Source of the DNA: a virus
Reading direction: 5' to 3' (one strand)
Length of the DNA stretch: 64,000 bases
Virus record (IMG/VR): IMGVR_UViG_3300017779_000001
Notes under the pieces: model-generated
Databases searched by the model: none
The model's input: only the letters and a program-made list of their open reading frames with translations
What the model was told of the DNA's origin: nothing
In this document: piece after piece, positions 40,001 to 60,222 of the stretch
How the letters are laid out: every line of letters starts with the position of its first letter
Position numbering within the stretch: position 1 is the stretch's first letter
Program-made: the position numbers and the translations under genes

Positions 40001-43000
40001 TTTAGAACCCGATGGTCAATTTGAGTTATCAGATGCAGTTGACTTTAGACCAGTAGCAGACCAGTTAATTGGTCTCTCAGGTTTTCCAACACAAGACATA
40101 GACCCAACAGATTCAAATCTAGTAGACATTAGTGATAGTTCTACAGGTATTACTGCAGCTCCATTTAAATATGAGAGTACAGGATTTACTGCATCTGCAT
40201 TAGATGTACCAGTAACGAATAGTGCAATTCAAGGTGACATTACTTTCTATGTACCTAGAATCGATAAAGTATTCTTACATAAAGCTGGTAACTTCCAAGT
40301 AAATAGTGGTGTACCATCTTTATCACCAACTAAACCAAAGGTCATGGATGATGCAATTGAAATGTTTGAATTGTTCATTCCACCGTTTACTGCAAACCTA
40401 AAGAAAATTAAGATTAAGAGTATCGACCATAGAAGATATACCATGAAGGATATCGGTAGGATACAAAACAGAGTTGCAAACCTAGAAAGACTTACAACAC
40501 TATCTCTCTTAGAAAGAGATACACAAAACATGCAAATCCAAGATGCAGACGGATTCGATAGATTCAAATCAGGATTTGTTGTTGATTCATTTAAGGGTCA
40601 TGGTATCGGTGATGTTTCTCATCCTGATTATGGTGTTGCAATTGATACTAAACTAGGTACACTTAGACCACAAGTTTACACTTCATTCTTTGACTTAGGT
40701 CTAAATGAAGCTTCATCATCTAGTTATCAGAAGACTGGTGATTTACTAACACTACCATATTCAGAAAAGACATATGTAAATCAAGATAAAGCATCTAGAA
40801 CAATTAATGTCAACCCATATAACGTATTTGCATTTATCGGTAACCTTAAGTTATCTCCAAATTCAGATGTATGGAATGATTCAGAAAGATTACCCGAAGT
40901 TAGAATTAACAGAGAAGGTAACTATGATGCAGTATTAGCTGAGAATACAAACTCACTAGGTACTGTATGGAATGCATGGCAAACAACATGGGTCGGTGAA
41001 CCTAATGTTGTAAATGAAGAAGTTGTTTCATCAAGGCCTGGTTCATGGTCAGGAGACCCAGCACAAGGTGGTGAATGGATACCTGGCGAAGATGTTACAA
41101 GAGTTATTACAGAAACACCCGAGACACAAACAAGAAATGGTGTTAAGACTACAGTAGTCGAAGATTTTGTAGAAGACAGAAGAGACAGGATTGTAAGTGT
41201 AAGTATTATACCTTTCATCCGTTCTAGAAGAGTAGAACTAGATGCACAAAACTTACAACCGAATAGAAAACACTATGTGTTCTTTGATGGTATTAACGTC
41301 AATGCACATGTTACACCTTTCAGTTCAACATTCGGAGACGGTGGTGCAACTGCAAAAGGAACTGTAATTAAATCAAACAGAAATGGAAGACTTCGTGCAT
41401 ATTTTGATATACCAAATAACAATGCACAAAGATTCCCAACAGGTCAAAGAGAAGTCAAGATAACTGCAAGTGAAAGTAATCTTTCTAATCCACCTTCTTA
41501 TGCAAGTAATGTATATCAGGCACAAGGATTATTGCAGTCATCACAAACAGAAATTATATCTACAAAGAATGGTAGAGTTATTAGAGAAAATCTAACAGCA
41601 GGTAGAAGTATTGAAAGGTCAGGAGAGTTCTTTAACAGAACTGCAACCGATTTGGATGCACCTCCATTACCACCAGTACCACCAGCTGAAGACCCACCAT
41701 TACCACCTCCACCACCTCCGCCGCCTGACCCACCACCACCAATCGTGACACCACCAGTGGATGAGGCACCAATTATTCCAAATAATATATTTGATGTCCC
41801 CGATGTATGGGAGTTCAGAGGATGGCAAGACCCATTAGCAGAATCTTTCTTAGTAGAGAGTCGTGGTGGTATGTTTATAACATCTATAGATTTATACTTT
41901 AATACTAAAGATGAAAGTTTACCAGTAACAGTTGAAATTAGAAACATGGTAAATGGTTACCCTGGCCAGATAGTACTTCCGTATTCAGAAGTAACTAAAA
42001 ATCCTAATCTGATAAACATCTCAGAGGATGGTTCAGTTGCAACTACATTTACATTTGATTCACCAGTATATGTTGAAGAAGGACAAGAATATTGTTTCGT
42101 AGTATTATCAAACTCTAACAAGTATGAAACATTCATTTCAACTATGGGTGAAGAAGACATTAAAACTGGTCAATTGATATCAGGACAACCGTACGCAGGT
42201 TCATTATTCAAATCACAAAATGCATCAACATGGACTGCAGAACAAACACAAGACCTTAAGTTCCATATGAAAACTGCAAAGTTTGATACAACAAAAATTG
42301 CAAACATTATATTTGAGAATGGTGATTTAGAAAATGATACACTACAAGTTAACCCTATTCAAACAACATCAGGTTCAAGTAATGTTAAGGTTTATCATTA
42401 TACACATGGTATGTATGATGCAACATCAAATGTAACTTTATCAGGTATACAAGGTGATAGAGAAAACGGTGTAACAAATATAGGTGAAGGAAGTGCAACA
42501 TTATTATCAGGGGCATTACCTTCAAATAGTACTTACAATGATATTGCAACTACATCTAGTGGAAGTGGAACTGGGTGTAAACTCAAGTTCGTAGTAGCTG
42601 GTGGTGCAATATCAGATATAGAAATTCAAGATTGTGGTAGTAATTATAGTGTCTCAGATACTTTAACTGTAACAAACTTGGGTAGTACAACTAATAGTAT
42701 ACAGATTAATATTGATGCTGTAACAGATACTATCGGTGGAGTACCAATTAATCTATTAAATAAAACACATACTGCAATTGCAAATCCAAAACTAGACAGT
42801 TACGAAGTTGTTGTAGATTGGGATTCAACAGATATTGACGGTGCATCTGCACCATCTGTGTCATCATCTGTGGGTGGAGGAACATCAGTAATAGGTACAA
42901 GAAACTATTACTTTGATTCAATCCACACAATGATTCCATCATTGACATTGAGAGATACAAGATTAACATGTAACTTACAATTGTGTGCAATGAATTCACC

Positions 43001-43658
43001 CGAAAGTTATGTGAAAGGAACACCGTATGCAATGAGAAACTCTTCTCAATATGTTACACTTAATGACAATGTATTCTTAGACGCACCAAGTATTGTTGCA
43101 TCAAGAATTAATGAAGTAAATCAATCATCATTATCAGGTACAAGGTCATTTAAAACACAAGTATCATACATCACTTTGAATGAAAACGTATCACCAGTAA
43201 TTGATATGTCTTCAATGGGTGTTATCTGTAATGCAAACAGAGTAAATGGTATGAGTTCAACTAATGAGCAAACAATCACCCCAACAGAAAATGCAGAAGG
43301 TGAGATGAATGCAATGACATATGTAACTAAGAGAGTTAACTTAAAAGAACCAGCATCTTCAATTAAGGTTATGTTAGATGGATTTAGTCCATTAAGTACA
43401 GACCTAAAAGTTATGTACAAGGTTCTATTGAATGACGAATCTACTCCTTTTGATGATGTAGGATACAACTTCTTTAACACCGATGGTTCACCTGATATTA
43501 TCGTAGATAAAGATGGTAAGAATTTTAAAGAGTACGAATATAGTATAGAAGACTTACCCGAGTTTACATCTTTTGCAATTAAGATTGTAGGACAAGCACA
43601 TAATACTTCTGTAGTTCCATTAGTGTCTAACCTTAGAGCAATAGCGTTAGCAACGTAA
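37032..43658 (+). CDS. Large virion structural protein (DUF4815/VrlC-like)
   Basis: N.TPY.DDF...K.F..VLF..G..LQARELTQ.QS.LQ.Q, APGADR, LARRTYD.SG.F.V, RRYTMKDIG, DRFKSGF.VD.F, DPLA.SF. Confidence 0.85.
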   Translation: MTEKTDLNVTPYHDDFSEDKKFHKVLFRAGRPLQARELTQSQSILQNQVERFAGHIFEEGSLVDGAQTDVVYDYGYVKVDNVNPNSVGGSVSTYLDSFKDKYIQGKTSGAVARVYLTVAETSDDPTTLVVKYLAGGTDSSNSFYFDANEELEEVNVDENGNPTSASNNNEFKVQTIDKSPVGRSSVASITEGVVYLRGFFVKVDAAQLILEKYSGQPSYRVGLDISEQLISSADDDSLLDNAQGTTNENAPGADRFKIQTTFVKKLLDTTDDTNFIELYRVVNGTTELKVSSANYSNFENSLARRTYDQSGDFTVRQFIPTLREHLQENDNLGYYTASQGGDVGKFVLQVSPGKAYVRGHEIDKIGTTPISLPKARTVAELSGTSTSARLGNYLKVTNIHSVPEFGNEGGEDSLKPNHLIKLYDSTVSLGTEPSSGQIGFARVRNFDELESVDVDNNKVLDPTSKHALYLFDIKMFTKIGITALSNASPINVGDRVDDTVTGAHGIVADVDYSNDFILVHDVQGTFVVGNTIQSTGSTNTTYNNAIASVRNYNIDRVRGVSQTPSNASREKFTGNVIVDGVKVLSGTVSLTAGSDTVVGFGTRFQDELKEGDVIVNPIDGGEHIVQTVGGATSVTLTANVGSGKTFQGNVTRRRVKLYDQNQTANIFAFSRDFIKSFTPDSCQVRRQTTVEVASQAFTISAGSGNTFPAITASNVNQFVEMAVIEQSSGSPTYLNGDVLDPRDFFTSLSGDSSTLSFGSLATANNGAILKVSYTVNIGSPVQRDKTLREGKMLKVGSPSSQNSFYGTGYDDKEISLGLADVFKIRGIYEAEDGSNPLPPSATIDQLNAGIPFVDKEIIKGQTTGARAKIINYAGDDNTTYFYYLSSTQFNSSESVVGETSTATGTLSNVSSGSKEIKNRYFFDDGQRDGFYDYAKLQLKPGEPAPNNSILIVFDYFTHGAGNFFDVSSYDNQVSYQEIPKYIPNKVDLGGLEPDGQFELSDAVDFRPVADQLIGLSGFPTQDIDPTDSNLVDISDSSTGITAAPFKYESTGFTASALDVPVTNSAIQGDITFYVPRIDKVFLHKAGNFQVNSGVPSLSPTKPKVMDDAIEMFELFIPPFTANLKKIKIKSIDHRRYTMKDIGRIQNRVANLERLTTLSLLERDTQNMQIQDADGFDRFKSGFVVDSFKGHGIGDVSHPDYGVAIDTKLGTLRPQVYTSFFDLGLNEASSSSYQKTGDLLTLPYSEKTYVNQDKASRTINVNPYNVFAFIGNLKLSPNSDVWNDSERLPEVRINREGNYDAVLAENTNSLGTVWNAWQTTWVGEPNVVNEEVVSSRPGSWSGDPAQGGEWIPGEDVTRVITETPETQTRNGVKTTVVEDFVEDRRDRIVSVSIIPFIRSRRVELDAQNLQPNRKHYVFFDGINVNAHVTPFSSTFGDGGATAKGTVIKSNRNGRLRAYFDIPNNNAQRFPTGQREVKITASESNLSNPPSYASNVYQAQGLLQSSQTEIISTKNGRVIRENLTAGRSIERSGEFFNRTATDLDAPPLPPVPPAEDPPLPPPPPPPPDPPPPIVTPPVDEAPIIPNNIFDVPDVWEFRGWQDPLAESFLVESRGGMFITSIDLYFNTKDESLPVTVEIRNMVNGYPGQIVLPYSEVTKNPNLINISEDGSVATTFTFDSPVYVEEGQEYCFVVLSNSNKYETFISTMGEEDIKTGQLISGQPYAGSLFKSQNASTWTAEQTQDLKFHMKTAKFDTTKIANIIFENGDLENDTLQVNPIQTTSGSSNVKVYHYTHGMYDATSNVTLSGIQGDRENGVTNIGEGSATLLSGALPSNSTYNDIATTSSGSGTGCKLKFVVAGGAISDIEIQDCGSNYSVSDTLTVTNLGSTTNSIQINIDAVTDTIGGVPINLLNKTHTAIANPKLDSYEVVVDWDSTDIDGASAPSVSSSVGGGTSVIGTRNYYFDSIHTMIPSLTLRDTRLTCNLQLCAMNSPESYVKGTPYAMRNSSQYVTLNDNVFLDAPSIVASRINEVNQSSLSGTRSFKTQVSYITLNENVSPVIDMSSMGVICNANRVNGMSSTNEQTITPTENAEGEMNAMTYVTKRVNLKEPASSIKVMLDGFSPLSTDLKVMYKVLLNDESTPFDDVGYNFFNTDGSPDIIVDKDGKNFKEYEYSIEDLPEFTSFAIKIVGQAHNTSVVPLVSNLRAIALAT
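41658..41780 (+). repeat. Polyproline low-complexity tract within the DUF4815-like protein
   Basis: APPLPPVPPAEDPPLPPPPPPPPDPPPPIVTPPVDEAPIIP. Confidence 0.9.
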
Positions 43659-43879
43659 TGAGTACAATGAAAGAACTAGCAAGAGTACAAGGAGAACAAC
43701 ATCTTTTTAGAGATGAAGAATCAGGTGCTATAATAAGTAATGATAGTCAAACACTTGCAATTTATAAGAAAAGAAAAACAGTGTTTCAAAATCAAATAAA
43801 TGAAATAAATACTCTTAGAGAAGAGATAAATGAAATTAAAGAATTTTTGAGGAATATAACAAATGGCCAAAACAGTTAG
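43658..43879 (+). CDS. Small conserved coiled-coil protein
   Basis: V.G...L.RD..SGAII...EIN.L..EI.EIK..L. Confidence 0.75.
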   Translation: MSTMKELARVQGEQHLFRDEESGAIISNDSQTLAIYKKRKTVFQNQINEINTLREEINEIKEFLRNITNGQNS

Positions 43880-46616
43880 TCAACATAGTACACTCGAAGA
43901 GTGGAGACAGTCGTATAACGAACTAGCATCAGATGTTGGGGATATTGGTGGTTTACGTACTCAAGATAAAACTACACTTGTTGATGCAGTAAACGATTTA
44001 AGAGATAGAGAATTCTTTTTCCAAGGATTTATTTACACTGCAACTGGTGGTCAAACAGTATTCGAAGGTGCAGACAGTTCATCCGACCAAAATGAATTAG
44101 AGTTTAGAGACCATAGATTCCTCGTATTCAAAAACGGTGAATTACAACAACTCTCAACAGATTTCACAATATCAAATGTAAATGCAAACGGTAATCACAC
44201 TAGAGTTACACTTACATCGGGTGCAACTAATAATGATATTATCAGAGTGGTTGCATTTACAGGTTCATTCCTTGATGTCGCAGGTCAAGCTGCAGTACAA
44301 ACGTTTTGGACTGAAACATTAGAGAACACAATTTACAATAACAACGATAGTGGTGTTATTATTAATGGTGACATCGGTTCAGTTGTCACAGAATTACAAT
44401 CAGGTTACGTAGTTCAGATAGAAGGTAAAACATTCATCAATGGTGATGTAGACCTTGATACAGGTCATACCCTATCTGCACCTACACTTACAGACAACAC
44501 ACTATCAATTAATCAAGGAAACGTCACAGGGGGTGTCACAGGAGACTTCAGTGGTGATTTCAACGTAGGTAATTTAGATGTCGGTGGTGGTTTCAATTCA
44601 ACAGGAGTATCGATTACATCTACTGGTAACATCAATGCAAACGGTAGTGCAGAGATTGATGGAAACCTAAACGTAGATGGTTTAACAACATTAGATGGAA
44701 CAACAATTGATGGTAATCTAGACCTTAATGGTAATCTAGATGCATCAGGAACAGGACACATCGGTGGTAACTTTGATGTCAATACTGATAAGTTTACAGT
44801 TGCATCAGCAACAGGTAACACTGCAGTAGCAGGAAGATTAGATGTAACTGGTAATCTAGATGTTGATGGTGCAACAACTACAGATGGAATACACAACGTA
44901 GGTTCTTTAAATCAAGATGGAAGTGTGGACATTTCAACTACACTAGAGGTACATGGAGCTGTAGATTTTAACTCTACTCTAACTGTAGATGGTCAATCTA
45001 ATCTCAATGGTCATGTAAACTTGGGTAATGCATCTACTGATACAGTTACATTCAATGGTGTACTTGATAGTGACATCGTTCCCGATGGAGATAGTTCAAG
45101 AGACTTAGGTACAAACAGTGTTAGATTTTCAAATGCATATATCGATACTACAACAGGTAACCTAGTCGGTAATGCAAGTACAGCTACAACTTTAGAAACT
45201 GCAAGAGATATAGGTGGTGTATCCTTTGACGGAAGTGCAAGTATCAATTTGCCTGGCGTCAACCAATCAGGTAATCAGGACACATCAGGAAACGCTGCAA
45301 GTGCAACTGTATTAGAGACTGCAAGAAATATATCAGGTGTATCTTTTGATGGAAGTGCAGACATAGAATTAAATACTTCTCACATTGATGAAAACGTTGC
45401 AAACCTTTATTTTACAAATGCAAGAGCAGATGCAAGAATAACAAATGCTATTGATACAGACAATACTTTTGCAGATGCATCAAACACTTTAGTTCCTTCA
45501 CAGTTAGCAGTCAAATCATACGTTGATTCACAATTAGATTTACAAGACGAACTAAGTGAGATGAGTGGAGACTCAAGTGATATTACAGAACACGCAACAA
45601 CAAATTTATTCTTTACAAATGCAAGAGCAGATGCAAGGATAACAGCTGCAAGTGTTGGAGATTTAAGTGATGTGGACATTACAGGTGTTGCAGCTGGTCA
45701 AGCACTTACATGGAGTGCAAGTAATAATAGGTTCGAACCCACAACACTTGGTAGTTCTACCGACAGTTTTGCAGAAGGGTCATCAAACCTTTACTTCACA
45801 AATGAAAGAGCAAGAGATGCTGTTGCAAGTTTAATAGTAAATTCAAACAGTGTTAGCAATGGTCTTAATGCAACATATAACGATAATGATAATGCTGAAG
45901 GTACATTAGAACTCGATGTTGACCCCGAATATATCAGAGACACAACTGCATCATTCATCACTGGTGGAACACATAGTGGTATCTCATTTACTCACGATGA
46001 TAATAATGATAAATTAAATGCATCTATATCAATAAGTGGTTTTGACACAAATGATTTAAGCGAAGGTGAAACTAATCTTTACTTTACAAATGCAAGAGCA
46101 GATGCTAGAATCGCAGCTGCTAATACAAGTGACTTGTCAGAAGACCCCGATGCAACTGGTTCAAGTGGTACAATGTACTTCACAGACGAAAGAGCTCGTG
46201 ACGCTGCAGCAGCCATGATTACTAGTGGTACACACAGTAACATTACAGTCAATTATAATGACACTGCAAATACACTTTCGTTCTCTGCAGCTGCACAATA
46301 CGCAGACTCAGATGCAAGAGGAGCTTTATCAGGTGGGCCAGGTATTGATTACAATACATCAACTGGTAAAATTTCTGCAGACCTAAATGCAAGTGGTGGA
46401 TTAGAGTTCCATGCAGCTGGTGATGGTGGTGAGATAAGATTGAAATCTTCAGTGGCAGGTAATGGTCTTGCACATAGTAGTGGTGTTCTCTCTATAAATA
46501 CAAGGAAAGGTGTAAAAATAGATTCAGATTTTGTTGAATCAGATTATGAAGTAGTTTCAACAGCACCCTCAAGTGTCAGTGGTACAAACGATGGACATTT
46601 GTGGTATGTGGTGTAA
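43863..46616 (+). CDS. Fibre protein 1 (fibritin-position/tail fibre-like)
   Basis: T.EEWR..N N-terminus; G.L.V.G beta repeats; NA..AT.LETAR.I.GV.FDG repeats; NLYFT..RA repeats; ends APSS...DGHLWYVV. Confidence 0.75.
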   Translation: MAKTVSQHSTLEEWRQSYNELASDVGDIGGLRTQDKTTLVDAVNDLRDREFFFQGFIYTATGGQTVFEGADSSSDQNELEFRDHRFLVFKNGELQQLSTDFTISNVNANGNHTRVTLTSGATNNDIIRVVAFTGSFLDVAGQAAVQTFWTETLENTIYNNNDSGVIINGDIGSVVTELQSGYVVQIEGKTFINGDVDLDTGHTLSAPTLTDNTLSINQGNVTGGVTGDFSGDFNVGNLDVGGGFNSTGVSITSTGNINANGSAEIDGNLNVDGLTTLDGTTIDGNLDLNGNLDASGTGHIGGNFDVNTDKFTVASATGNTAVAGRLDVTGNLDVDGATTTDGIHNVGSLNQDGSVDISTTLEVHGAVDFNSTLTVDGQSNLNGHVNLGNASTDTVTFNGVLDSDIVPDGDSSRDLGTNSVRFSNAYIDTTTGNLVGNASTATTLETARDIGGVSFDGSASINLPGVNQSGNQDTSGNAASATVLETARNISGVSFDGSADIELNTSHIDENVANLYFTNARADARITNAIDTDNTFADASNTLVPSQLAVKSYVDSQLDLQDELSEMSGDSSDITEHATTNLFFTNARADARITAASVGDLSDVDITGVAAGQALTWSASNNRFEPTTLGSSTDSFAEGSSNLYFTNERARDAVASLIVNSNSVSNGLNATYNDNDNAEGTLELDVDPEYIRDTTASFITGGTHSGISFTHDDNNDKLNASISISGFDTNDLSEGETNLYFTNARADARIAAANTSDLSEDPDATGSSGTMYFTDERARDAAAAMITSGTHSNITVNYNDTANTLSFSAAAQYADSDARGALSGGPGIDYNTSTGKISADLNASGGLEFHAAGDGGEIRLKSSVAGNGLAHSSGVLSINTRKGVKIDSDFVESDYEVVSTAPSSVSGTNDGHLWYVV
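46493..46500 (+). promoter_or_regulatory. Internal late promoter TATAAATA upstream of the short mirror-repeat gene
   Basis: Exact consensus about 140 nt before ATG 46640. Confidence 0.5.
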
Positions 46617-46639
46617 TGGGACACAGAGGTGAACATTAA

Positions 46640-48880
46640 ATGTCAAATGAAACATATATTAATACAGGGACTAGTTTTCAACAACCCTTCAATGATAGAA
46701 GACCTGTACAACAAAGTTACCAATATAACAATCAAGAAAATAGACAGAGACCTGTACAACAAAATTATCAGTACAACAACGTAGAGAATAGACAGAGACC
46801 TGCTAGACAATCGTATCAATACAATAACGTAGAGAACAGACAAAGACCAGCTAGACAGTCATATCAATACAATAACGTAGAGAGCAGACAGAGACCAACA
46901 AGACAGTCTTATCAGTACCATAATAGAGTACAACAAAATACTCAACAAGATTACACTTATCATAATAGGACACAACAACCTAATCAGCAGAACTATACCT
47001 ATCATAATAGAGTAGATAGACAACGTCCTGTACAACAAAATTATCAGTATCATAATAGAGTAAATAGACAAAGACCTGCTCGACAACCTTACACTTATCA
47101 CAACCGTGTTCAACAAGATACTCAGCAAACTTATCAGTATCATAATAGGATTCCAACCACTACTCAACAAGAATACACTTATCACAATCGTGTTCAACAA
47201 AATACTCAACAAACGTATGTGTACCATAATAGAATACAAGAAAGCACTCAGCAAAATTATCAGTACAACAACGTAGAGTCAAAACAAAGACCTGTTAGGA
47301 ATCAAGCACACCAAAATTACATTCATTACATGCAAGTTTATGGGGGTTCAGGAGATACAGCTGCTATTAAGATGGAAACACCATATGGTCAGGTAACTAA
47401 TACGATACCATCTTTTGAGTTCATGGGGTTTCCAATGCAAGAACAACGTACCGTAAGTGGAAGTCAATATACGTTCCAAGCAAGACAAGCATCGGGTAAT
47501 GCACATGAAGGAGACTCATTTAGGGGTGCAATGTTCTTCAGAGGGCCACAGTATAGCTTACAAGGAACTCAGTCACCATACTATGAAGGTGCGGGGCCAC
47601 AGGGAAATCATACAAATTATACACAGTGGGAGATGCAAGGATTTTCTTTTGAGGGACAGTTCCAAAGACAATGGACAGGACGTTTAAGATACACAGGAAA
47701 GAATACTAAGTTTGCAGCTCACATGGAAGCTACTGATACTGTGCAAAACCAAACCGTCCCCAATCCTCAAAGACAAGGACATCCTCAGGGACAGGGGAAT
47801 CAAGGACTTGAATTTCTTTCTCAACATCCAAATAATTCTCAATATGGAATTACAATTACCAGTGGTCAGTATACAAGATTGGGGTGGGAACATGAGGGGT
47901 CATTTAATTCTCAGGTTCAATCACCAGTTAACCCCCGAAATATTCCTCAAACAGCGTTGAGAAATAAAGGAACCTTTGTAAGAGTGAGACCCCGTGGTTA
48001 TGCAAGACAAGAACAATTTACTACAGGTGTTGCTTTAGATTTTGCATCAGTAGCTGCACAAGGTCTTGATTATCAGGTACCTACTGCAAATCTTAATGAT
48101 AAACAACAACCTGCTCAACAAACTTATTCATACCATAATCAATTACCTAGAAGAAGACCCGTTAGAACTCAACGAAACGAAGATTCAGATAGACAAAGAC
48201 CAGTAAGAGTACAAACACTTTCATCTGAAACAAAACGTAGACCAACTACAGTACAACAATTACAACGTGTATCTAGACGAAGACCAGTTAGAAATCAAGT
48301 CAATCAGGCTAATGAACAACAAAGAAATATACAACAAACATATCAGTATAATAATATTGTAACTAAACAACGTCCTGTACAACAAACTTATCCATATAAT
48401 AATGTTGAGACTAGACAAAGACCTGTTAGAAATCAAGTTAATGAAGATGTGACTAGACAAAGACCTGCTAGGGTTGCAGTATTACAAAGAGTTTCTAGAC
48501 AAAAGAATTTGCAACAAACATATTCTTATCACAATCAGGTTCCTAGAAGAAAATCTGTACAACAGACTTATAGTTATCATAACAGAGTAACAAGACAAAA
48601 GAATTTACAACAGACTTATAGTTATCATAATCAGGTTCCAAGACGTAGACCAGTACAACAGACTTATAATTATCATAATCAGGTTCCAAGACGTAGACCA
48701 GTGAGACAACCATTCCCTTCAACAAGACCTATAGGGCCTCTTGCAAAGGTTAAACAAATTTGGATTAATGAAGGTGGAGTGTTAAGAAAAATGGATGAAG
48801 TGTACTTAAATGATAGTGGAACATTGAAAAAGACTCATCAAAGTGTACCAACTTCTCAATTAACAGACCCGAACACTTAA
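46640..48880 (+). CDS. Mirror-repeat (hairpin) fibre-tip protein, short paralogue
   Basis: 13 N-arm and 13 C-arm Q/R/Y-rich 14/16-aa units flank a ~273-aa domain homologous to that in 56074-60222; GAGGT SD. Confidence 0.8.
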   Translation: MSNETYINTGTSFQQPFNDRRPVQQSYQYNNQENRQRPVQQNYQYNNVENRQRPARQSYQYNNVENRQRPARQSYQYNNVESRQRPTRQSYQYHNRVQQNTQQDYTYHNRTQQPNQQNYTYHNRVDRQRPVQQNYQYHNRVNRQRPARQPYTYHNRVQQDTQQTYQYHNRIPTTTQQEYTYHNRVQQNTQQTYVYHNRIQESTQQNYQYNNVESKQRPVRNQAHQNYIHYMQVYGGSGDTAAIKMETPYGQVTNTIPSFEFMGFPMQEQRTVSGSQYTFQARQASGNAHEGDSFRGAMFFRGPQYSLQGTQSPYYEGAGPQGNHTNYTQWEMQGFSFEGQFQRQWTGRLRYTGKNTKFAAHMEATDTVQNQTVPNPQRQGHPQGQGNQGLEFLSQHPNNSQYGITITSGQYTRLGWEHEGSFNSQVQSPVNPRNIPQTALRNKGTFVRVRPRGYARQEQFTTGVALDFASVAAQGLDYQVPTANLNDKQQPAQQTYSYHNQLPRRRPVRTQRNEDSDRQRPVRVQTLSSETKRRPTTVQQLQRVSRRRPVRNQVNQANEQQRNIQQTYQYNNIVTKQRPVQQTYPYNNVETRQRPVRNQVNEDVTRQRPARVAVLQRVSRQKNLQQTYSYHNQVPRRKSVQQTYSYHNRVTRQKNLQQTYSYHNQVPRRRPVQQTYNYHNQVPRRRPVRQPFPSTRPIGPLAKVKQIWINEGGVLRKMDEVYLNDSGTLKKTHQSVPTSQLTDPNT
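46709..47296 (+). repeat. N-arm: 13 degenerate 42/48-nt units (196 aa)
   Basis: QQxYxY(H/N)N... units counted in the translation. Confidence 0.9.
48116..48703 (+). repeat. C-arm: 13 degenerate 42/48-nt units (196 aa)
   Basis: Same total length as the N-arm; unit types complementary in reverse order. Confidence 0.9.
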
Positions 48881-48898: not shown

Positions 48899-49231
48899 AT
48901 GGCAATCATAGCAAACATATTTATAGACCAAGGTACCGATTTCGAAGTTACTATCGATGTCTCTGATACCAGTGACAATATCATAGACTTATCAGGGTAC
49001 ACTGCCTCTGCACAAATAAGAAAAACATATGGTTCTGAAACCATTGCAGAAACTTTTGGTACATCCATAACTGCATCAACTGGTAAGGTAACACTTACTC
49101 TTACGGATACTCAAACCACTGGTTTGAAAAGTGGTAGATATGTTTATGATTTAGTAATAACAGATGCCTCAGGAACAAAGACTAGAGTCATTGAGGGACA
49201 AGCAATAATAACACCCGGCGTAACAAGGTAG
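48899..49231 (+). CDS. Virion structural adaptor (BppU-N-like Ig fold)
   Basis: IDQGTDF...DL.GYT..AQIRK.Y...G.V.L.LT..QT..L..GRYVYD...RVIEG...TPGVT. Confidence 0.75.
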   Translation: MAIIANIFIDQGTDFEVTIDVSDTSDNIIDLSGYTASAQIRKTYGSETIAETFGTSITASTGKVTLTLTDTQTTGLKSGRYVYDLVITDASGTKTRVIEGQAIITPGVTR

Positions 49232-49241
49232 GGTTTATAAA

Positions 49242-49493
49242 ATGGCTATAAAAGCAAAGATATCAGGGAACGCAAGTAACGTGACATTAAAATCAAGACT
49301 ATTACAATCAACAGGCATTAAAGCAAAGCAAGTTGCAATCGGAGACTCTTCTACTGGAGGAGGTAGTAGTGTAAATTCGATAAGTGATATCGCAGACGTG
49401 AATGCAACAGAAACCGATAAAGGTTTACTAAACTATAATGCTGAAACAGATAGATGGGAAACCACTACAGTTATTGATGGTGGAACATTCTAG
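49242..49493 (+). CDS. Small fibre adaptor ending in IDGGTF
   Basis: I.D..DV...G.L.YN....W fibre motif; C-terminal DGGTF. Confidence 0.7.
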   Translation: MAIKAKISGNASNVTLKSRLLQSTGIKAKQVAIGDSSTGGGSSVNSISDIADVNATETDKGLLNYNAETDRWETTTVIDGGTF

Positions 49494-49642: not shown

Positions 49643-51244
49643 ATGGCAACAGTAATTCAAATTAAAAGGTCTACTGGTAGTGCTAATCCCGCAATTTCTG
49701 ATTTAGCAGAAAGTGAATTAGCCTACGTTCAGGATAGGTCAGGAACTGGTGCGAACGCAACTCTCTTCATAGAATCACATGACGGTACAAGTGCAGTTAT
49801 TCACGAAATCGGTGGTAAGTACTATACAGACATGTTGGCTGGTTCAACACCAACACCTTCAGACTTCATAGTAGGTAACGGTGCAACAGCTGGTGCATCT
49901 ATTAAGTTGAGAGAAGATTCAGACAACGGAACAAATTTCGTTGCTCTAAAATCACCCGACACATTGGGTTCAAACCTCACATTAACATTACCATCTTCAG
50001 ATGGTTCAAACGGACAAGTACTTGGAACCGATGGTTCAGGAGCATTGTCTTTCGTATCAACAACTTCATCAATCGCAGGTGCATCTGATACAGATATTTC
50101 AGCACCAGCATCAGGACACATTCTTGTCCATGACGGTTCAGACTCATTTGATAACGTAGCAGTTTCAGGTGACGTAACACTTGCATCTAATGGTGCAATG
50201 ACAATCGGTTCAGGTGTAGTTGAAAATGGCATGATAGCTGCAGACGCAGTAACAGGTGCTAAAATCGCAGACGACGCTATTGATTCAGAACATCTTGCAG
50301 ATGGTTCAATCGATACAGCTCACATTGCAAATGGACAAGTAACATTTGGTAAACTTGCAGCTGCAGCGGTTGTAATCGAATCAGAAGGTATCGGTTCAAA
50401 CGATAACGACACAACAATTCCTACTTCAGCGGCAGTAAAAAACTATGTTGATACTAACGTAACAGCACAAGATGTAGACTTTGCTGGTGATTCAGGAACA
50501 GGTGCAGTCGATTTAGATTCACAATCACTTACAATTCAAGGTACAAATAACGAAATTGAAACAAGTGCAAGTGGACAAACTTTAACAGTTGGTCTACCTA
50601 ACGATGTAACTATTTCAAATAACTTAACAGTTTCAGGAAACTTAATATCAGACGATATTACAACTGCAACATTAACAACTTCAGGTAACCTTACAGTAAC
50701 AGGTAACTTAAGTGTTAACGGTACAACAACAACTGTTAATTCAACAACAGTATCAATTGCAGACCCAATTTTTGAAATTGGTGATGATAGTTCAGATGAT
50801 AATCTAGACAGAGGTATCAAATTTAAGTACAACTCAGGTGGTACTAAACTTGGGTTCTTTGGTATGGACGATACAGATGCTAAATTTAAGTTTATTGCAG
50901 ATGCAACAGACACAAGTTCAGTATTCTCAGGTTCACTAGGTAACGTTGCATTCGGTAATGCCGAAGTAGCAGCTTTATCATTAAGTGGTTCTATCTCATC
51001 ATACGCAGGGTCAGCTCCAACAGACGGTCAAATCTTAATTGGTGACACTTCAGGTGGAGTATTCGATGCAGCTACATTGACAGCTGGTGAAGCAATAACT
51101 ATTACTAATGGTGCTGGTGCAATTACACTAGCTGCTGAAGACGCAACTACATCTAATAAAGGTGTTGCATCTTTCTCAAGTAATAACTTCACTGTTTCAA
51201 GTGGTGCTGTAACCGTTACTGCAATTGACGGTGGTACATTTTAA
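49643..51244 (+). CDS. Tail fibre segment protein
   Basis: MATVIQIKRS...P...L...ELA N-terminus; LP..DG..GQVL.TDG.G.L; VT..KIA repeats; G.L.V.GTTTTVNST; ends IDGGTF. Confidence 0.8.
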   Translation: MATVIQIKRSTGSANPAISDLAESELAYVQDRSGTGANATLFIESHDGTSAVIHEIGGKYYTDMLAGSTPTPSDFIVGNGATAGASIKLREDSDNGTNFVALKSPDTLGSNLTLTLPSSDGSNGQVLGTDGSGALSFVSTTSSIAGASDTDISAPASGHILVHDGSDSFDNVAVSGDVTLASNGAMTIGSGVVENGMIAADAVTGAKIADDAIDSEHLADGSIDTAHIANGQVTFGKLAAAAVVIESEGIGSNDNDTTIPTSAAVKNYVDTNVTAQDVDFAGDSGTGAVDLDSQSLTIQGTNNEIETSASGQTLTVGLPNDVTISNNLTVSGNLISDDITTATLTTSGNLTVTGNLSVNGTTTTVNSTTVSIADPIFEIGDDSSDDNLDRGIKFKYNSGGTKLGFFGMDDTDAKFKFIADATDTSSVFSGSLGNVAFGNAEVAALSLSGSISSYAGSAPTDGQILIGDTSGGVFDAATLTAGEAITITNGAGAITLAAEDATTSNKGVASFSSNNFTVSSGAVTVTAIDGGTF

Positions 51245-56073: not shown

Positions 56074-59000
56074 ATGGCGCAACGAATAAAGAACCCTACG
56101 GGGTGGGTAAACACAACAGGAAGCTGGGTAAAAACATCTCCAACTGAATGGTCGGCAGTAGATTCTATCTATTCAAAGACACCTACTGGGTGGGTAAAGT
56201 CATCAGGACAAATGCCAGCTCAAGTAGTTGCAACAAGACCAGCAGTTGGGACAAGACCTTACAACTTCCAACAATCTTATCAATTCACTGTGCAACAGTC
56301 GTATCAGTATCATAATAGGGTACAGGCATCTACACAACAGTCATATCAGTATCATAACAGGGTTCAAACAAGTGTTCAACAAGATTACACTTATCACAAC
56401 CGTGTTCAACAAAATACTCAACAGACATATACCTATCATAATAGAGTACAAAGAAGAAGACCAGTACAACAAGCATATACCTATCATAATAGAGTACCTA
56501 GACGTAGACCAGTACAACAGACTTATAGTTATCACAATCAGGTACCAAGACGTAGACCAGTACAACAGACGTACGTCTATCATAATCAGGTACCAAGACG
56601 TAGACCTACACAACAATCATATCAATACCATAATAGAGTTGGTAGACAACGTGTAGTACAACAGGGTTATACTTATCACAATAGAGGACAAGCTTCTACC
56701 CAACAGACTTACCAGTATCATAACAGAGTTCAAACAAGTACTCAACAACCTTACACTTATCATAATAGGGTACCTAGAAGAAGACCTGTACAACAGTCGT
56801 ATCAGTACCATAATAGAGTACAAAGAAGAAGACCTGTTCAACAGACGTATACCTATCATCATAGAATACCAAGACGTAGACCAGTACAACAGGCATACAC
56901 TTATCACAATAGGATACAAACAAGTACTCAACAGGCATACACTTATCACAATAGGGTACCTAGAAGAAGACCAGTCCAACAGGCATACCAGTACCACAAT
57001 AGGGTGCAGAGAAGAAGACCTGTTCAACAGTCGTATCAGTACCATAATAGAGTACCTAGAAGAAGACCAGTACAACAAGGGTATACTTATCATAATAGAG
57101 GACAAGCATCAACTCAACAGACTTATCAATATCATAACAGAGTTCAAGCTTCTACTCAACAGAGTTACCAGTATCATAATAGGGTTCAGACTAGTGTACA
57201 ACAATCATACCAATACCATAATAGAGTACAGGTAAGTACACAACAGAATTACCAGTACAACAATACTGAATCAAGAAGAAGACCTGTACAACAAAGTTAC
57301 CAGTACAACAATCAAGAGTCTAGAAGAAGACCAGTACAACAGGTATACCAGTATCATAATCAGGTACCTAGAAGAAGACCTGTACAACAGACGTATACCT
57401 ATCATAATCAGGTACCAAGACGTAGACCTGTACAACAAAGTTACCAGTACAATAATCAAGAGACAAGACGTAGACCAGCACAACAGTCTTATACGTATCA
57501 TAATAGACTTCAAGCTAGGTATAGTTACCAACAACCTTATAGTTATCACAATCAGGTACCAAGACGTAGACCTGTGCAACAAGCATACACTTATCATAAT
57601 CAGGTTCCAAGACGTAGACCAGTTCAACAGTCTTATCAGTACAATAATCAAGAGTCAAGACGTAGACCAGTTCAACAGTCTTATCAGTACAATAATCAAG
57701 AGCCAAGACGTAGACCAACACAACAGTCTTATCAGTTTAACCAACCTACACCTAGAAGAAGACCTGTACAACAAACATACCAGTTTAACCAACCTACATC
57801 TAGGACAAGACAGACTACAGTAAGGAATAGCGCACACACAGCTTACATCCATTATGGAAATATCTATGGTGGTGGTGGTGATACATCTGTTATTAAGGTA
57901 GAAACTCCATACGGACAAAGAACTTCCTATATACCATCTTTTGAGTTCTCGGGTTTCCCAATGAATGCTCAGAATACAGGTACTGCAAGTCCATTTGGTT
58001 TTGCAGGAAGACCTGATGGAAAAGGACATGAAAGAGATTCCTTTAGAGGAAACATGATGTTCAGAGGGCCTTCGTTACAAATGTCAGGTACGCAATCACC
58101 ATTCTTTACTGGTAGTGGCCCACAAAACCAATCAACATCACCGAAGAGTTGGCACTATAGAAGTTACTTTGGTGGACAAAGACAGTGGCAGGGTGTGTTA
58201 AGATTTGTTGGTGCGAACATGGAATTTGGTGCTGATTTCGTTGCAGGGCCAGCTGCTCAATCTGTTCAAAGTATACCTAACCCACAGAGACAAGGTTCAA
58301 TACCTATTACAGGACAAGCACCAACTAATTCTCAATATGGTGCAAAAATAACGAGTGGACAGACTGCAACATTTAAATGGTCACAAGATGGTCAGATGCA
58401 GTCACAATCACCCGGCGGTGGAGGTGGAGGATTCCCACTATTTGTCAGAAACAAAGGTGATGTATTCGTTAGAAGTAGAGATTTGTCTCATGTTCACCAA
58501 GTAACTTTCAGTAATAGTGCTGGTGTGACATGGCCTCAAGGTCAGATGAACGAGATGCAACAGCCTGGTCAACAGAACCAACCGTACACTTATCATAATA
58601 GGGTACAAAGACGTAGACCAACACAACAACCGTACACTTATCATAATAGGGTACCTAGAAGAAGACCAGTACAACAGGCATACACTTATCATAATCAGGT
58701 ACCTAGAAGAAGACCTGTGCAACAAGCGTACACTTATCATAATCAGGTACCAAGACGTAGACCTGTACAACAAAGTTACCAGTACAACAATCAAGAGTCT
58801 AGAAGAAGACCAGTACAACAAAGTTACCAGTACAATAATACTGAGACTAGGAGAAGACCTGCTAGGTCAGACTATCGAGTCAACCAACCTACTCCTAGAA
58901 GAAGACCAGTACAACAGACGTATACCTATCATAATAGAATACCGAGACGTAGACCAGTGCAACAATCTTATCAGTACAATAATACTGAGACTAGAAGAAG

Positions 59001-60222
59001 ACCAGTGCAATCGTCTTATCAGTACAATAATACTGAATCTAGAAGAAGACCAGTTCAACAGACGTATACTTATCATAATAGAATACCAAGACGTAGACCT
59101 GTACAACAAAGTTATCAGTATCATAATCAGGTACCTAGAAGAAGACCAACTAGAGTACAAACATTACAGAGGGTGTCAAGACAGAGACCAGCAAGAGTAC
59201 AAGCTTTACAACGTGTATCAAGACGTAGACCAACAAGAGTACAACAGTTGCAACGTGTCTCTAGACAAAGACCAGCAAGAGTACAGGTTAACATTCAAGA
59301 AACAAGAAGAAGACCTGTACAACAAAGTTACCAGTACAATAATATTGTAACTAGACAACGTCCTGTACAACAAGGTTATCAATATAATAATATTGAGTCT
59401 AGAAGAAGACCAGTGCAACAGGGTTATCAATATAATAATACTGAGACTAGAAGAAGACCAACTAGAGTACAGGTGAACCAACCTTCTCCTAGAAGAAGAC
59501 CTGTTCAACAGAGTTATCAGTATAATAGTACTGAGAACAGACAGAGACCAGTACAACAAGGTTATCAGTATAATAATATTGAGACTAGACAACGTCCTGT
59601 ACAACAAGGTTACCAGTATAATAATGTTGAGACTAGAAGAAGACCAGCAAGAGTACAACAGTTGCAACGTGTTTCTAGACAAAGACCTGCTAGAGTTCAG
59701 GTAAATATACAAGAAACTAGAAGAAGACCAGCACAGCAAACTTATCAGTACAATAATATTGTAACTAGACAACGTCCAACACAACAGAATTATCAATATA
59801 ATAATACTGAAAATAGACAGAGACCAGTGCAACAAGGTTACCAGTATAATAATACTGAAAACAGACAAAGACCAGTGCAACAGGGTTATCAATATAATAA
59901 TATTGAGTCTAGAAGAAGACCAGTGCAACAGGGTTATCAATATAATAATATTGAGTCTAGACAAAGACCAGCAAGAGTTCAGGTTCTACAGAATGTAACT
60001 AGACAAAGACCTGCTAGAACACAGGTATTGCAGAGAGTTTCAAGACAGAGACCTACTAGGGTACAGGTATTGCAAAGAGTTTCAAGACAGAGACCAGCAC
60101 AGTCATCCCGTCAGAAGGTTACAGTTGGTATACAACCATATGCATATCAACAACCGTATAGAAATACAGTTCAGAAATGGGATGGTACAACGTCTTGGCC
60201 TGCACAACCAATATCCTCTTAA
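56074..60222 (+). CDS. Mirror-repeat (hairpin) fibre-tip protein, long paralogue
   Basis: Trp-rich N-terminus; 33 N-arm and 33 C-arm units flank a ~250-aa domain homologous to that of 46640-48880. Confidence 0.8.
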   Translation: MAQRIKNPTGWVNTTGSWVKTSPTEWSAVDSIYSKTPTGWVKSSGQMPAQVVATRPAVGTRPYNFQQSYQFTVQQSYQYHNRVQASTQQSYQYHNRVQTSVQQDYTYHNRVQQNTQQTYTYHNRVQRRRPVQQAYTYHNRVPRRRPVQQTYSYHNQVPRRRPVQQTYVYHNQVPRRRPTQQSYQYHNRVGRQRVVQQGYTYHNRGQASTQQTYQYHNRVQTSTQQPYTYHNRVPRRRPVQQSYQYHNRVQRRRPVQQTYTYHHRIPRRRPVQQAYTYHNRIQTSTQQAYTYHNRVPRRRPVQQAYQYHNRVQRRRPVQQSYQYHNRVPRRRPVQQGYTYHNRGQASTQQTYQYHNRVQASTQQSYQYHNRVQTSVQQSYQYHNRVQVSTQQNYQYNNTESRRRPVQQSYQYNNQESRRRPVQQVYQYHNQVPRRRPVQQTYTYHNQVPRRRPVQQSYQYNNQETRRRPAQQSYTYHNRLQARYSYQQPYSYHNQVPRRRPVQQAYTYHNQVPRRRPVQQSYQYNNQESRRRPVQQSYQYNNQEPRRRPTQQSYQFNQPTPRRRPVQQTYQFNQPTSRTRQTTVRNSAHTAYIHYGNIYGGGGDTSVIKVETPYGQRTSYIPSFEFSGFPMNAQNTGTASPFGFAGRPDGKGHERDSFRGNMMFRGPSLQMSGTQSPFFTGSGPQNQSTSPKSWHYRSYFGGQRQWQGVLRFVGANMEFGADFVAGPAAQSVQSIPNPQRQGSIPITGQAPTNSQYGAKITSGQTATFKWSQDGQMQSQSPGGGGGGFPLFVRNKGDVFVRSRDLSHVHQVTFSNSAGVTWPQGQMNEMQQPGQQNQPYTYHNRVQRRRPTQQPYTYHNRVPRRRPVQQAYTYHNQVPRRRPVQQAYTYHNQVPRRRPVQQSYQYNNQESRRRPVQQSYQYNNTETRRRPARSDYRVNQPTPRRRPVQQTYTYHNRIPRRRPVQQSYQYNNTETRRRPVQSSYQYNNTESRRRPVQQTYTYHNRIPRRRPVQQSYQYHNQVPRRRPTRVQTLQRVSRQRPARVQALQRVSRRRPTRVQQLQRVSRQRPARVQVNIQETRRRPVQQSYQYNNIVTRQRPVQQGYQYNNIESRRRPVQQGYQYNNTETRRRPTRVQVNQPSPRRRPVQQSYQYNSTENRQRPVQQGYQYNNIETRQRPVQQGYQYNNVETRRRPARVQQLQRVSRQRPARVQVNIQETRRRPAQQTYQYNNIVTRQRPTQQNYQYNNTENRQRPVQQGYQYNNTENRQRPVQQGYQYNNIESRRRPVQQGYQYNNIESRQRPARVQVLQNVTRQRPARTQVLQRVSRQRPTRVQVLQRVSRQRPAQSSRQKVTVGIQPYAYQQPYRNTVQKWDGTTSWPAQPISS
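56293..57822 (+). repeat. N-arm: 33 degenerate 42/48-nt units (510 aa)
   Basis: 10 14-mers, 22 16-mers and one 18-mer counted in the translation. Confidence 0.9.
58576..60099 (+). repeat. C-arm: 33 degenerate 42/48-nt units (508 aa)
   Basis: 10 14-mers and 23 16-mers, in mirror order to the N-arm. Confidence 0.9.

What the first reader, a model, noticed from the sequence alone, without database searches (positions are those of the whole stretch)
46640..48880. Second, shorter paralogue obeys the same mirror code with a different pattern (13/13 units, both arms exactly 196 aa)
SEEN: The N-arm is N16x4, H14x2, H16x2, H14x4, N16. The C-arm read backwards is H16x4, X14x2, N16x2, X14x4, H16. Both arms are 588 nt (46709-47296 and 48116-48703). 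The junctions co-vary as well: all four N-arm junctions reading RP(A/T)-RQ face the four Pro-less C-arm junctions (QRNI, QKNL, RKSV, QKNL). The flanks QQPF...RRP and RQPF...TRP close the stem. The unit order differs from the long paralogue, so this replicates the rule independently. INFERENCE: the virion shows two needles of different length (about 65 and 170 nm if extended) built on one grammar, which would be a length-programmable protein rod.
Basis: partly seen in the sequence, partly recalled or inferred. Interest (0 to 1): 0.9.

Follow-up and report, generated by a model that had tools for sequence, protein, structure and literature searches.

The report
Fold-back phage fibre with pairing code
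A 746-residue protein in the tail-fibre gene block of an uncultured marine T4-like phage has two 196-residue repeat arms that match unit for unit in reverse order, and relatives change both arms together, so the arms almost certainly pair antiparallel into a stalk of coded length, a design I found in no paper or protein-family library.

Summary
The ORF 46640-48880 encodes 13 N-arm units (aa 24-219) and 13 C-arm units (aa 493-688). With the C-arm read backwards they are complementary 13/13 (N16:H16, H14:X14), and each arm is 196 aa.

It is not chance and not a DNA effect:
- The long paralogue and its two orthologues obey the rule at 33/33 units.
- A short orthologue obeys it 13/13 with a different pattern.
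- All 8 unit-type changes between orthologues are matched at the mirrored position.
- Arg at position 1 of a unit goes with a partner whose penultimate residue is not Pro (240 of 244 cases).
- The gene has no inverted DNA repeats.

Every Pro sits at an odd arm position and every Tyr at an even one over hundreds of residues, which suggests continuous beta strands.

The C-terminal module places the protein in a superfamily of at least 75 IMG/VR loci. Most are split into two genes whose arms mirror each other.

Best reading: an antiparallel fold-back stalk with the central domain at the distal tip. Not tested: 3D structure (AlphaFold2 failed, the complex tool was unreachable), length, oligomer state and presence in the virion.

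This scan has already noted the same kind of protein on DNA from at least 26 other genomes.

The parts
46640..48880 (+). Gene of the short fold-back fibre protein (746 aa plus stop)
   Evidence: ORF list; RBS GAGGTG upstream; reproduced in independent run assemblies
46640..46708 (+). N-terminal cap (aa 1-23), MSNETYINTGTSFQQPFNDRRPV; superfamily-wide N-terminal motif that includes the stem-closing flank QQPF..RRP
   Evidence: Invariant in 5 homologues. The same motif heads the fused proteins, or protein A of the split pairs, in most of the roughly 47 distinct relatives examined
46709..47296 (+). N-arm, 13 units, 196 aa: N16x4, H14x2, H16x2, H14x4, N16
   Evidence: Segmentation; all Pro at odd and all Tyr at even arm positions
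47297..48115 (+). Central domain (aa 220-492, 273 aa), beta-rich, no known family; putative distal tip
   Evidence: 48% identical to the centre of the long paralogue; only 7 representatives among 1.84 billion proteins, one of them spurious; no Pfam or Atlas match; AF2 pLDDT 33
48116..48703 (+). C-arm, 13 units, 196 aa: H16, X14x4, N16x2, X14x2, H16x4 (the mirror complement of the N-arm)
   Evidence: Segmentation; statistics; residue coupling
48704..48877 (+). C-terminal module (aa 689-746): RQPFPSTRP flank plus IGPLAKVKQIWINEGG... domain; putative docking or oligomerisation module
   Evidence: phrog_13729, E 4e-7; found in 75 IMG/VR loci
56074..60222 (+). Long paralogue (1382 aa): N-arm nt 56293-57819, centre 57820-58569, C-arm 58570-60099; 33 mirrored unit pairs
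   Evidence: Segmentation, 33/33 counting the odd innermost 17:18 pair; run-shuffle 0 hits in 200,000
48899..49231 (+). Neighbouring 110-aa gene, LtfC-like beta-sandwich (annotated elsewhere as L-shaped tail fibre assembly protein); possible assembly factor (inference only)
   Evidence: PF23926 E 1.1e-5, just below the cut-off; phrog_1084 and phrog_3304; same position in the syntenic contig L012
43863..46616 (+). Upstream 917-aa tail-fibre protein that ends ...GHLWYVV; context showing that the gene lies in a fibre module
   Evidence: PHROG tail-fibre families; same neighbour in L003 and L012

Best explanation
The protein is a fibre component of an uncultured marine T4-like myophage, and its two repeat arms pair with each other antiparallel, unit against unit. 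Most likely the chain runs out along the N-arm, forms the 273-residue central domain at the far end, and returns along the C-arm. Both termini (the conserved N-cap and the C-terminal module) would then sit together at the virion-proximal end, and the central domain would be the distal, probably receptor-binding, tip. Each unit is a 'head' plus a 'tail'. The head is either the 8-residue QQxYxY(H/N)N or the 6-residue RVQx(L/N)Q. The tail is either an 8-residue Arg/Pro-rich stretch ending RRRPV or the 6-residue Pro-less RVQQNT. In the antiparallel pair a long head lies against a long tail and a short head against a short tail. This explains why 16 pairs only with 16 and 14 only with 14, and why the types are complementary rather than identical. 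The strict two-residue phase (Pro odd, Tyr even, all unit lengths even) suggests that both arms are continuous beta strands forming an amphipathic two-stranded ribbon with a Tyr/Val/Arg face. Several such ribbons, probably three, would bundle into the stalk. Stalk length is then set by the number of unit pairs: 13 here and 33 in the paralogue. Shown here: the mirror complementarity, its compensatory evolution, the residue coupling, the dyad phase, the superfamily and its split forms. Inferred: beta-ribbon geometry, intramolecular fold-back, trimer, tip function, virion location.
For: 1) 13/13 complementary units with equal 196-aa arms.
2) The same rule holds at 33/33 in the long paralogue and in two orthologues from other contigs, and at 13/13 in a short orthologue (L001) with a different pattern.
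3) Between orthologues, 8 of 8 unit-type changes in one arm are matched at the mirrored position in the other arm. These include 16:16 to 14:14 changes and swaps that place X14 in the N-arm and H14 in the C-arm. The P0005 N-arm mirrors the C-arm of its close relative P0006 at 13/13 with yet another pattern.
4) Residue-level coupling: Q at position 1 faces a partner with penultimate Pro 186 times. R or T at position 1 faces a partner without that Pro 54 times. There are only 4 exceptions.
5) The strongest mutual-information pairs lie near i+j = unit length, which is an antiparallel register.
6) In one register, 39 of 40 (short) and 105 of 108 (long) Tyr lie opposite Arg/Lys, with few Arg:Arg or Pro:Pro clashes (2 and 0 in the short protein, 7 and 3 in the long).
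7) Pro is at odd positions 103/103 and Tyr at even positions 148/148 along the arms. Unit spacings across the superfamily are even in 1980 of 2119 cases.
8) There are no inverted DNA repeats in the gene.
9) Gene fission: in the syntenic relative L003 the arms lie on two adjacent genes (GGAGG RBS, TAATG overlap), and their 8/10-residue unit lengths mirror 27/27. Among 29 distinct relatives tested, 15 exceed all 2000 shuffles and 21 have p<0.05.
10) Context: the gene lies in a tail-fibre block downstream of gp6/gp8-like baseplate genes.
11) Precedent for a chain that goes out and returns: domain D10 of T4 gp37 is made of residues 811-881 plus 1010-1026, which flank the needle (PMC6957217).
Against: There is no structural evidence. 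AlphaFold2 gave pLDDT 28 (full length) and 33 (centre), and the multimer job could not be run. Four database homologues have 1, 2, 2 and 5 unpaired units. These may be assembly collapses of tandem repeats, but they could be real bulges, which would mean strict pairing is not obligatory. The exact register cannot be fixed: three neighbouring registers each have an argument. Two Pro per 16 residues is unusual for a regular beta sheet. Some fused superfamily members fail the crude boundary test, and one (L079) has 28- versus 29-residue repeats. Nothing shows that the protein is in the virion. No cultured phage carries the family.
Confidence: 0.7

Rival explanations
1. The arms pair antiparallel, but between chains: two or more chains lie head to tail, so the N-arm of one pairs with the C-arm of another. 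This gives a symmetric rod of double length with the central domains in the middle and a mixed N/C terminus at each end.
For: The mirror code, the compensatory changes and the residue coupling are satisfied equally well by inter-chain pairing. The common split forms show that the two arms can pair as separate polypeptides.
Against: A fibre with two identical ends has no polarity for attaching to the virion at one end and the host at the other. In the split forms the tip domain is on protein A only and the conserved C-module on protein B only, which fits a polar A:B stalk with the cap and the module together at one end. This argument is an inference, not a test.
Confidence: 0.12
2. Each 14/16-residue unit is one rung of a compact stacked (beta-solenoid-like or cross-beta) structure. 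The two arms form two stacks packed side by side in opposite directions. The stalk would be only about 6 nm (13 rungs) or 16 nm (33 rungs) long rather than 65 or 170 nm.
For: Repeats of 14-16 residues are in the size range of known solenoid rungs (own knowledge). The Q/N/Y-rich heads resemble amyloid-forming segments (own knowledge). Mirrored order would also arise if the chain climbs one stack and descends the other.
Against: Side-by-side stacks do not require equal unit length rung by rung, or that every length variant in the superfamily be even (1980 of 2119 spacings). The coupled positions run along the whole unit on an antiparallel diagonal rather than at one edge. Heads lie opposite tails, with Tyr opposite Arg 105/108.
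Confidence: 0.12
3. The mirror pattern has no structural meaning. It would be chance in a low-complexity repeat protein, a by-product of DNA-level events (inverted duplication, mRNA hairpin), or an assembly artefact.
For: Tandem repeats evolve in runs, which lowers the effective number of independent units. For the short protein alone the run-shuffle p is only about 0.008.
Against: There are no inverted DNA repeats. The arms are same-strand direct repeats of different unit types. The rule holds in every full-length pair examined, with 8 of 8 compensatory type changes, and in a different repeat grammar on two separate genes. The long paralogue gave 0 hits in 200,000 run shuffles. Independent assemblies give the same sequence.
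Confidence: 0.01

Closest known systems
Needle (domains D10-D11) of the phage T4 long tail fibre tip, gp37 C-terminal region (described in PMC6957217; PDB 2XGF cited from my own knowledge)
   Same: A T4-type phage fibre in which each chain runs out to a distal receptor-binding tip and returns. Segments from before and after the tip therefore lie side by side (D10 = residues 811-881 plus 1010-1026) in an elongated beta structure.
   Different: The gp37 needle is about 130 residues long and is held by seven iron ions bound by His residues. It has no tandem repeat grammar. Here the arms are 196 and about 510 residues of 14/16-residue units with a complementary type code. There is no HxH motif (one His per H-unit), no sequence similarity and no solved structure. 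Related proteins exist as two-gene split forms.
Antiparallel coiled-coil arms of SMC/Rad50/MukB proteins
   Same: One chain folds back so that an N-terminal and a C-terminal arm pair antiparallel over tens of nanometres. Arm lengths and irregularities must match in mirror order, and the termini come together at one end.
   Different: Those arms are alpha-helical heptad repeats. Here a Pro every 4-8 residues and a strict two-residue periodicity exclude helices and point to beta strands. The biology also differs (chromosome proteins versus a phage fibre).
Triple beta-spiral shafts of adenovirus fibre and reovirus sigma1 (own knowledge)
   Same: Viral fibre shafts built from tandem repeats of about 15 residues with Pro/Gly turns. 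Shaft length is set by repeat number.
   Different: Beta-spiral chains run parallel from base to knob and need no second, complementary arm. No Pfam shaft family was detected. The mirror complementarity is unexplained by that fold.

Membership tests
T4 gp37-type needle | His-x-His motifs that coordinate iron along the needle axis | tested here: not met
   The arms contain YxYHN with a single His per H-unit and no HxH.
T4 gp37-type needle | Sequence homology to the gp37/gp12 collar or needle region | tested here: not met
   No Pfam family matched the whole protein, its centre or its C-module. The only PHROG hit is phrog_13729, of unknown function. tblastn against 50,697 phage records found nothing.
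T4 gp37-type needle | Chain reversal at a distal tip, with outgoing and returning segments paired | tested here: inconclusive
   Antiparallel pairing of the arms is supported by covariation, but intramolecular fold-back is not distinguished from inter-chain pairing, and there is no usable 3D model.
T4 gp37-type needle | Homotrimer | not testable with these tools
   The multimer prediction job was never accepted (tool unreachable).
Mirror-armed phage fibre superfamily (uncharacterised; defined here by shared termini) | N-terminal motif M-(S/A)-x-E-x-Y-(I/V)-N-x-G...FQQP | tested here: met
   The window protein starts MSNETYINTGTSFQQPF. The motif heads the fused proteins, or protein A of the split pairs, in most of the distinct relatives examined.
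Mirror-armed phage fibre superfamily (uncharacterised; defined here by shared termini) | C-terminal module TRxIGPxAKVK...ND(S/G)GT..K.HQ.VP | tested here: met
   Alignment A4; 75 IMG/VR loci confirmed by tblastn.
Mirror-armed phage fibre superfamily (uncharacterised; defined here by shared termini) | Unit boundaries of the two arms coincide in mirror order | tested here: met
   Window protein 13/13; L003 27/27; 15 of 29 relatives beyond all 2000 shuffles and 21 of 29 at p<0.05.
Triple beta-spiral fibre shaft (adenovirus/reovirus) | Parallel trimer of about 15-residue repeats with no returning arm; Pfam shaft repeat signature | tested here: not met
   No Pfam hit. The complementary second arm is not a feature of that fold. 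Oligomer state was not testable.
Pfam PF08017 Fibrinogen_BP (hit in the long paralogue only) | Score above the curated gathering threshold (50 bits) | tested here: not met
   38 bits against a cut-off of 50, over the Arg/Gln-rich repeats. I read this as a compositional match.

The most novel reading that the evidence does not exclude
These phages build fibres from a sequence-coded, self-pairing beta ribbon. A small alphabet of half-units (Tyr-rich long head against Arg/Pro long tail, short head against short Pro-less tail) sets the register of two antiparallel strands over tens to more than a hundred nanometres. Fibre length would then be programmed simply by adding or removing mirrored unit pairs, either within one chain (as here, 13 and 33 pairs with homologous tips) or between two separate proteins (the split relatives). 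It would be a protein analogue of a nucleic-acid stem-loop.
Probability: 0.5. Interest if true: 0.9.

Novelty: categorically new. Interest (0 to 1): 0.8.

Why it matters
If the arms pair as the covariation indicates, this is a previously undescribed way to build a long, thin protein rod. Its register and length would be written in a simple complementary repeat code, which evolution edits by paired insertions, deletions and swaps. That would interest three groups. Structural virologists would have a new fibre architecture in abundant, uncultured marine T4-like phages. Phage ecologists would have a lead on host recognition, because the same type of tip is carried on stalks of two lengths in one genome. 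Protein designers would have a natural, modular, length-programmable beta scaffold. The family is absent from Pfam and from 50,697 cultured-phage records but present in at least 75 IMG/VR contigs. It is testable at once by expressing one gene and looking at it by EM.

Tried and rejected
- AlphaFold2 on the full protein with a 5-sequence alignment gave pLDDT 28. On the centre plus flanking units with 10 sequences it gave pLDDT 33. Neither model is usable, so no fold search was run.
No result of any kind.
- Pfam, PHROGs and the ESM Atlas gave nothing informative for the central domain and termini.
- The long paralogue's centre found no near-length homologue in the word-indexed search, although orthologues exist in IMG/VR.
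- tblastn of the protein, of a fused relative and of the C-module against cultured phages gave no match.
- A DNA inverted repeat or mRNA hairpin as the origin of the mirror is rejected: 0 inverted repeats.
- The idea from another note, that the short protein's C-terminal module and the long protein's N-terminal domain are the same docking module, is not supported: no BLASTP alignment at E<=100 and no shared PHROG.
- Metatranscriptome contigs cover only small parts of the gene at depth about 2, and one of those libraries is probably DNA. This is no evidence of expression.
- The joints in read laying had sides under 35 nt and come from repeat or paralogue cross-matches.
- The exact strand register could not be fixed.
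- The literature searches found no description of such a protein. That covers the open-access library only.
Full report
**What is there**

The window is part of a 72.3-kb IMG/VR virus record that CheckV rates about 40% complete. Its gp6-like baseplate protein is closest to the OM43 phage Melnitz (41% identity) and to Pelagibacter myophages Mosig and HTVC008M (39-40%). A gp8 family gene and several PHROG tail-fibre families surround the finding. The ORF 46640..48880 (+) encodes 746 aa and has a GAGGTG ribosome-binding site upstream. No terminator-like site occurs in the fibre block around it.

The protein has five parts:
- a 23-residue N-cap;
- a 196-residue N-arm;
- a 273-residue central domain;
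- a 196-residue C-arm;
- a 58-residue C-terminal module.

**Check of the observation**

I segmented each arm by dynamic programming into 14- or 16-residue units, scored on simple position features.
- The N-arm is N16x4, H14x2, H16x2, H14x4, N16.
- The C-arm read backwards is H16x4, X14x2, N16x2, X14x4, H16.

This gives 13 of 13 complementary pairs (N16:H16, H14:X14) and no pair of identical type. The co-varying junctions are also real. The four N-arm units that begin with R instead of Q face exactly the four C-arm units whose penultimate residue is not Pro.

Chance is small. Only one of 36,036 orderings of the C-arm units gives the match. Shuffling whole runs gives p about 0.008. Reading the C-arm in parallel order gives only 5 of 13.

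Logan contigs from seawater runs of 2017 and 2025 reproduce the sequence with no differences where they cover it, so this is not an assembly artefact.

**Replication and compensatory change**

The long paralogue (56074..60222, 1382 aa) has a central domain 48% identical to the short one. It obeys the same rule at 33 of 33 units, counting the odd innermost 17:18 pair. Its orthologues on two other IMG/VR contigs (L006, L007) do the same. Run shuffles never reach this score in 200,000 trials.

A short orthologue (L001; 70% identical by tblastn) is 13/13 with a different pattern and 194-aa arms.

Between orthologues, every change of unit type in one arm is matched at the mirrored position of the other arm:
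- 1 of 1 between the window's short protein and L001 (16:16 became 14:14);
- 7 of 7 between the window's long protein and L006, including swaps that put X14 in the N-arm and H14 in the C-arm.

The N-arm of P0005 mirrors the C-arm of its close relative P0006 at 13/13, with yet another pattern and again 196 aa.

Four database proteins from short-read assemblies (P0002-P0005) show no non-complementary pair, only 1, 2, 2 and 5 unpaired units. I cannot tell whether these are collapsed tandem repeats or real bulges.

**Residue-level evidence for contact**

Over 125 mirrored pairs from five proteins, the first residue of a unit depends on the partner's penultimate residue.
- Q at position 1 faces a partner with penultimate Pro 186 times.
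- R or T at position 1 faces a partner without that Pro 54 times.
- There are four exceptions.

The rule works in both directions. In L007 the Pro-less unit is in the N-arm and the R-starting unit in the C-arm.

The strongest mutual-information pairs point to an antiparallel alignment of each unit on its partner.
- For 16-mers they are 15x1, 13x3 and 3x13, so i+j = 16.
- For 14-mers they include 1x13, 5x9 and 3x11, so i+j = 14. The top-scoring pair (5x5) and two others lie off this diagonal.

X14 subtypes also co-vary with H14 subtypes. RVQxLQRVS goes with Y-Q-Y, and RVQVNxxET goes with Y-T-Y.

A scan of global registers shows that at i+j = L+2 almost every Tyr lies opposite Arg or Lys (39 of 40 in the short protein, 105 of 108 in the long). 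At i+j = L+1, His lies opposite Glu (7 and 20 times) and identical residues are at a minimum. The precise register therefore remains open, but heads clearly lie against tails.

**A simpler statement of the code (inference from the sequences)**

Each unit is a head plus a tail. The compositions are:
- H16 and N16: long Tyr head plus long Arg/Pro tail;
- H14: long head plus short Pro-less tail;
- X14: short head plus long tail.

Antiparallel pairing puts long head on long tail and short head on short tail. This reproduces the allowed pairs.

The orthologous change at unit 8 fits this. In the window, H16 (tail NRQRPA) pairs with N16 (head QQTYQYNN). In L001, H14 (tail PTSV) pairs with X14 (head RVQVNQ), and the rest of the partner (ITKQRPV) is kept. 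A two-residue loss in a tail is thus matched by a two-residue loss in the head that faces it.

**Evidence for continuous strands**

Along all four arms of the two window proteins:
- every Pro (103 of 103) is at an odd position;
- every Tyr (148 of 148) is at an even position;
- His is odd in 45 of 46 cases;
- Val is even in 119 of 129 cases.

All unit lengths are even. Across the wider superfamily, 1980 of 2119 unit spacings are even. A two-residue phase kept over hundreds of residues and through all length variants is what continuous beta strands require. It is not required by helices, which the Pro density excludes, or by stacked solenoid rungs.

If same-parity residues face each other, the ribbon has one Tyr/Val/Arg/Glu face and one Pro/His/Ser/Gln face. 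All Pro would then sit at positions whose backbone NH need not bond to the partner strand. This is inference.

**Not a DNA effect**

The gene has no inverted repeats. Both arms are same-strand direct repeats of different unit types. Inverted duplication or an mRNA stem therefore cannot produce the mirror. Selection at the protein level is needed.

**The wider family**

The central domain is rare. It has 7 representatives among 1.84 billion proteins, one of them spurious, and no Pfam, PHROG or Atlas relative.

The C-terminal module, by contrast, occurs in 75 IMG/VR loci. The corresponding proteins share the N-terminal motif M(S/A)xEIY(I/V)NxG..FQQP but use other repeat grammars, mostly 8- and 10-residue Q-x-P units, and other centres.

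About 30 distinct loci are split into two adjacent genes:
- protein A carries the N-cap, the N-arm and the tip;
- protein B carries the C-arm and the C-module.

About 14 loci are fused. In the syntenic relative L003 the split is genuine, with a GGAGG site and a TAATG overlap. The unit lengths of arm A equal those of arm B read backwards at 27 of 27, with complementary types and one swapped pair.

A crude grammar-free test counted coincidences of unit boundaries at x+y = K and compared them with 2000 shuffles. It is beyond all shuffles in 15 of 29 distinct relatives and has p<0.05 in 21. Several fused relatives with irregular units fail it. One relative (L079) has 28- versus 29-residue repeats. 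The rule is therefore general but perhaps not universal, or the test is too blunt.

No member was found in 50,697 cultured-phage records.

**Interpretation**

The arms pair antiparallel, unit for unit. I am confident of this (about 0.85). The next steps are less certain.

I favour an intramolecular fold-back with the central domain at the distal tip. Phage fibres are polar, and the conserved N-cap and C-module would then lie together at the base. T4 gp37 gives a precedent for a chain that goes to the tip and returns: D10 is made of residues 811-881 plus 1010-1026 (PMC6957217).

Head-to-tail pairing between chains fits the same covariation and is a live rival. So is a compact side-by-side stacking that would make the stalk ten times shorter.

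By analogy with the twisted gp37 needle they could be somewhat less. None of this has been measured.

Function as a receptor-binding fibre is inferred from gene context only. The two paralogues would present homologous tips at two distances.

**Comparison with what is known**

The closest known object is the gp37 needle. It shares the fold-back topology in a T4-type fibre. It lacks any repeat code and relies on His-bound iron, which is absent here. No sequence relation was found.

The SMC/Rad50 arms share the principle of mirrored antiparallel arms but are alpha-helical. Triple beta-spiral shafts share about 15-residue repeats and repeat-number-coded length but have no returning arm.

Four literature searches found no description of such a protein.

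Earlier notes of this scan report the same kind of mirror-armed fibre in at least 26 other genomes, with follow-up agents reaching the same reading. They also include the long paralogue of this genome. Those notes are not independent evidence. The tests reported here were done on this window and its relatives.

**Verdict**

The architecture appears to be undescribed, and I rate it as categorically new with interest 0.8. The main weakness is that there is no structural or experimental evidence of any kind.

Noticed in passing
L003:3001-5414 (IMGVR_UViG_3300009425_000104): A syntenic relative is split into two genes (468 aa and 335 aa; GGAGG RBS, TAATG stop/start overlap). Its repeats are 8/10 residues long, and their lengths mirror 27/27 between the two proteins. 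It has A-type (..IAN.) versus R-type (..TY.RQG) complementarity and one swapped pair at units 16-17.
   Followed up: yes
L079:644-2902 (IMGVR_UViG_3300007236_000025): A fused superfamily member (751 aa) has seven or eight 28-residue repeats in the N-arm and six or seven 29-residue repeats in the C-arm. The unit lengths are therefore unequal (28 against 29), and the 29-residue units are odd. This is a possible exception to the equal-length, even-length rule.
   Followed up: partly
P0002, P0003, P0004 (also L012:10001-12235), P0005: Four database homologues have 1-5 unpaired units but no non-complementary pair. The cause is either collapse of tandem repeats in short-read assemblies or tolerated bulges. 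P0004 lies on a 141.7-kb contig.
   Followed up: partly
window 49242-49493, 49643-51244, 53421-53756; 49643 and 51270: Three fibre-module genes end in DGGTF, and two begin MATVIQ(I/F)KRS. This suggests a repeated head-to-tail docking grammar among the neighbouring fibre proteins.
   Followed up: no
window 43863-46616 and 53756-56059: Each fold-back gene directly follows a large fibre gene. The two fibre genes end ...GHLWYVV and ...GDVWITYS. The equivalent gene before the split pair in L003 ends ...GHLWFVI.
   Followed up: no
window 37032-43658: A 2208-aa protein with a DUF4815 domain (E 1.5e-65) and phrog_358 lies between the gp8-like gene and the fibre block.
   Followed up: no
window 48214-48364 and 46505-46916: Short contigs from two libraries labelled metatranscriptomic match the gene exactly at depth about 2. 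One of those libraries is probably DNA, so this is not evidence of transcription.
   Followed up: partly
window 56074-56270 versus 48704-48877: The long paralogue's N-terminal domain (GW/W-rich) and the short paralogue's C-terminal module show no detectable similarity (BLASTP, PHROGs). The two paralogues therefore have different terminal modules.
   Followed up: yes
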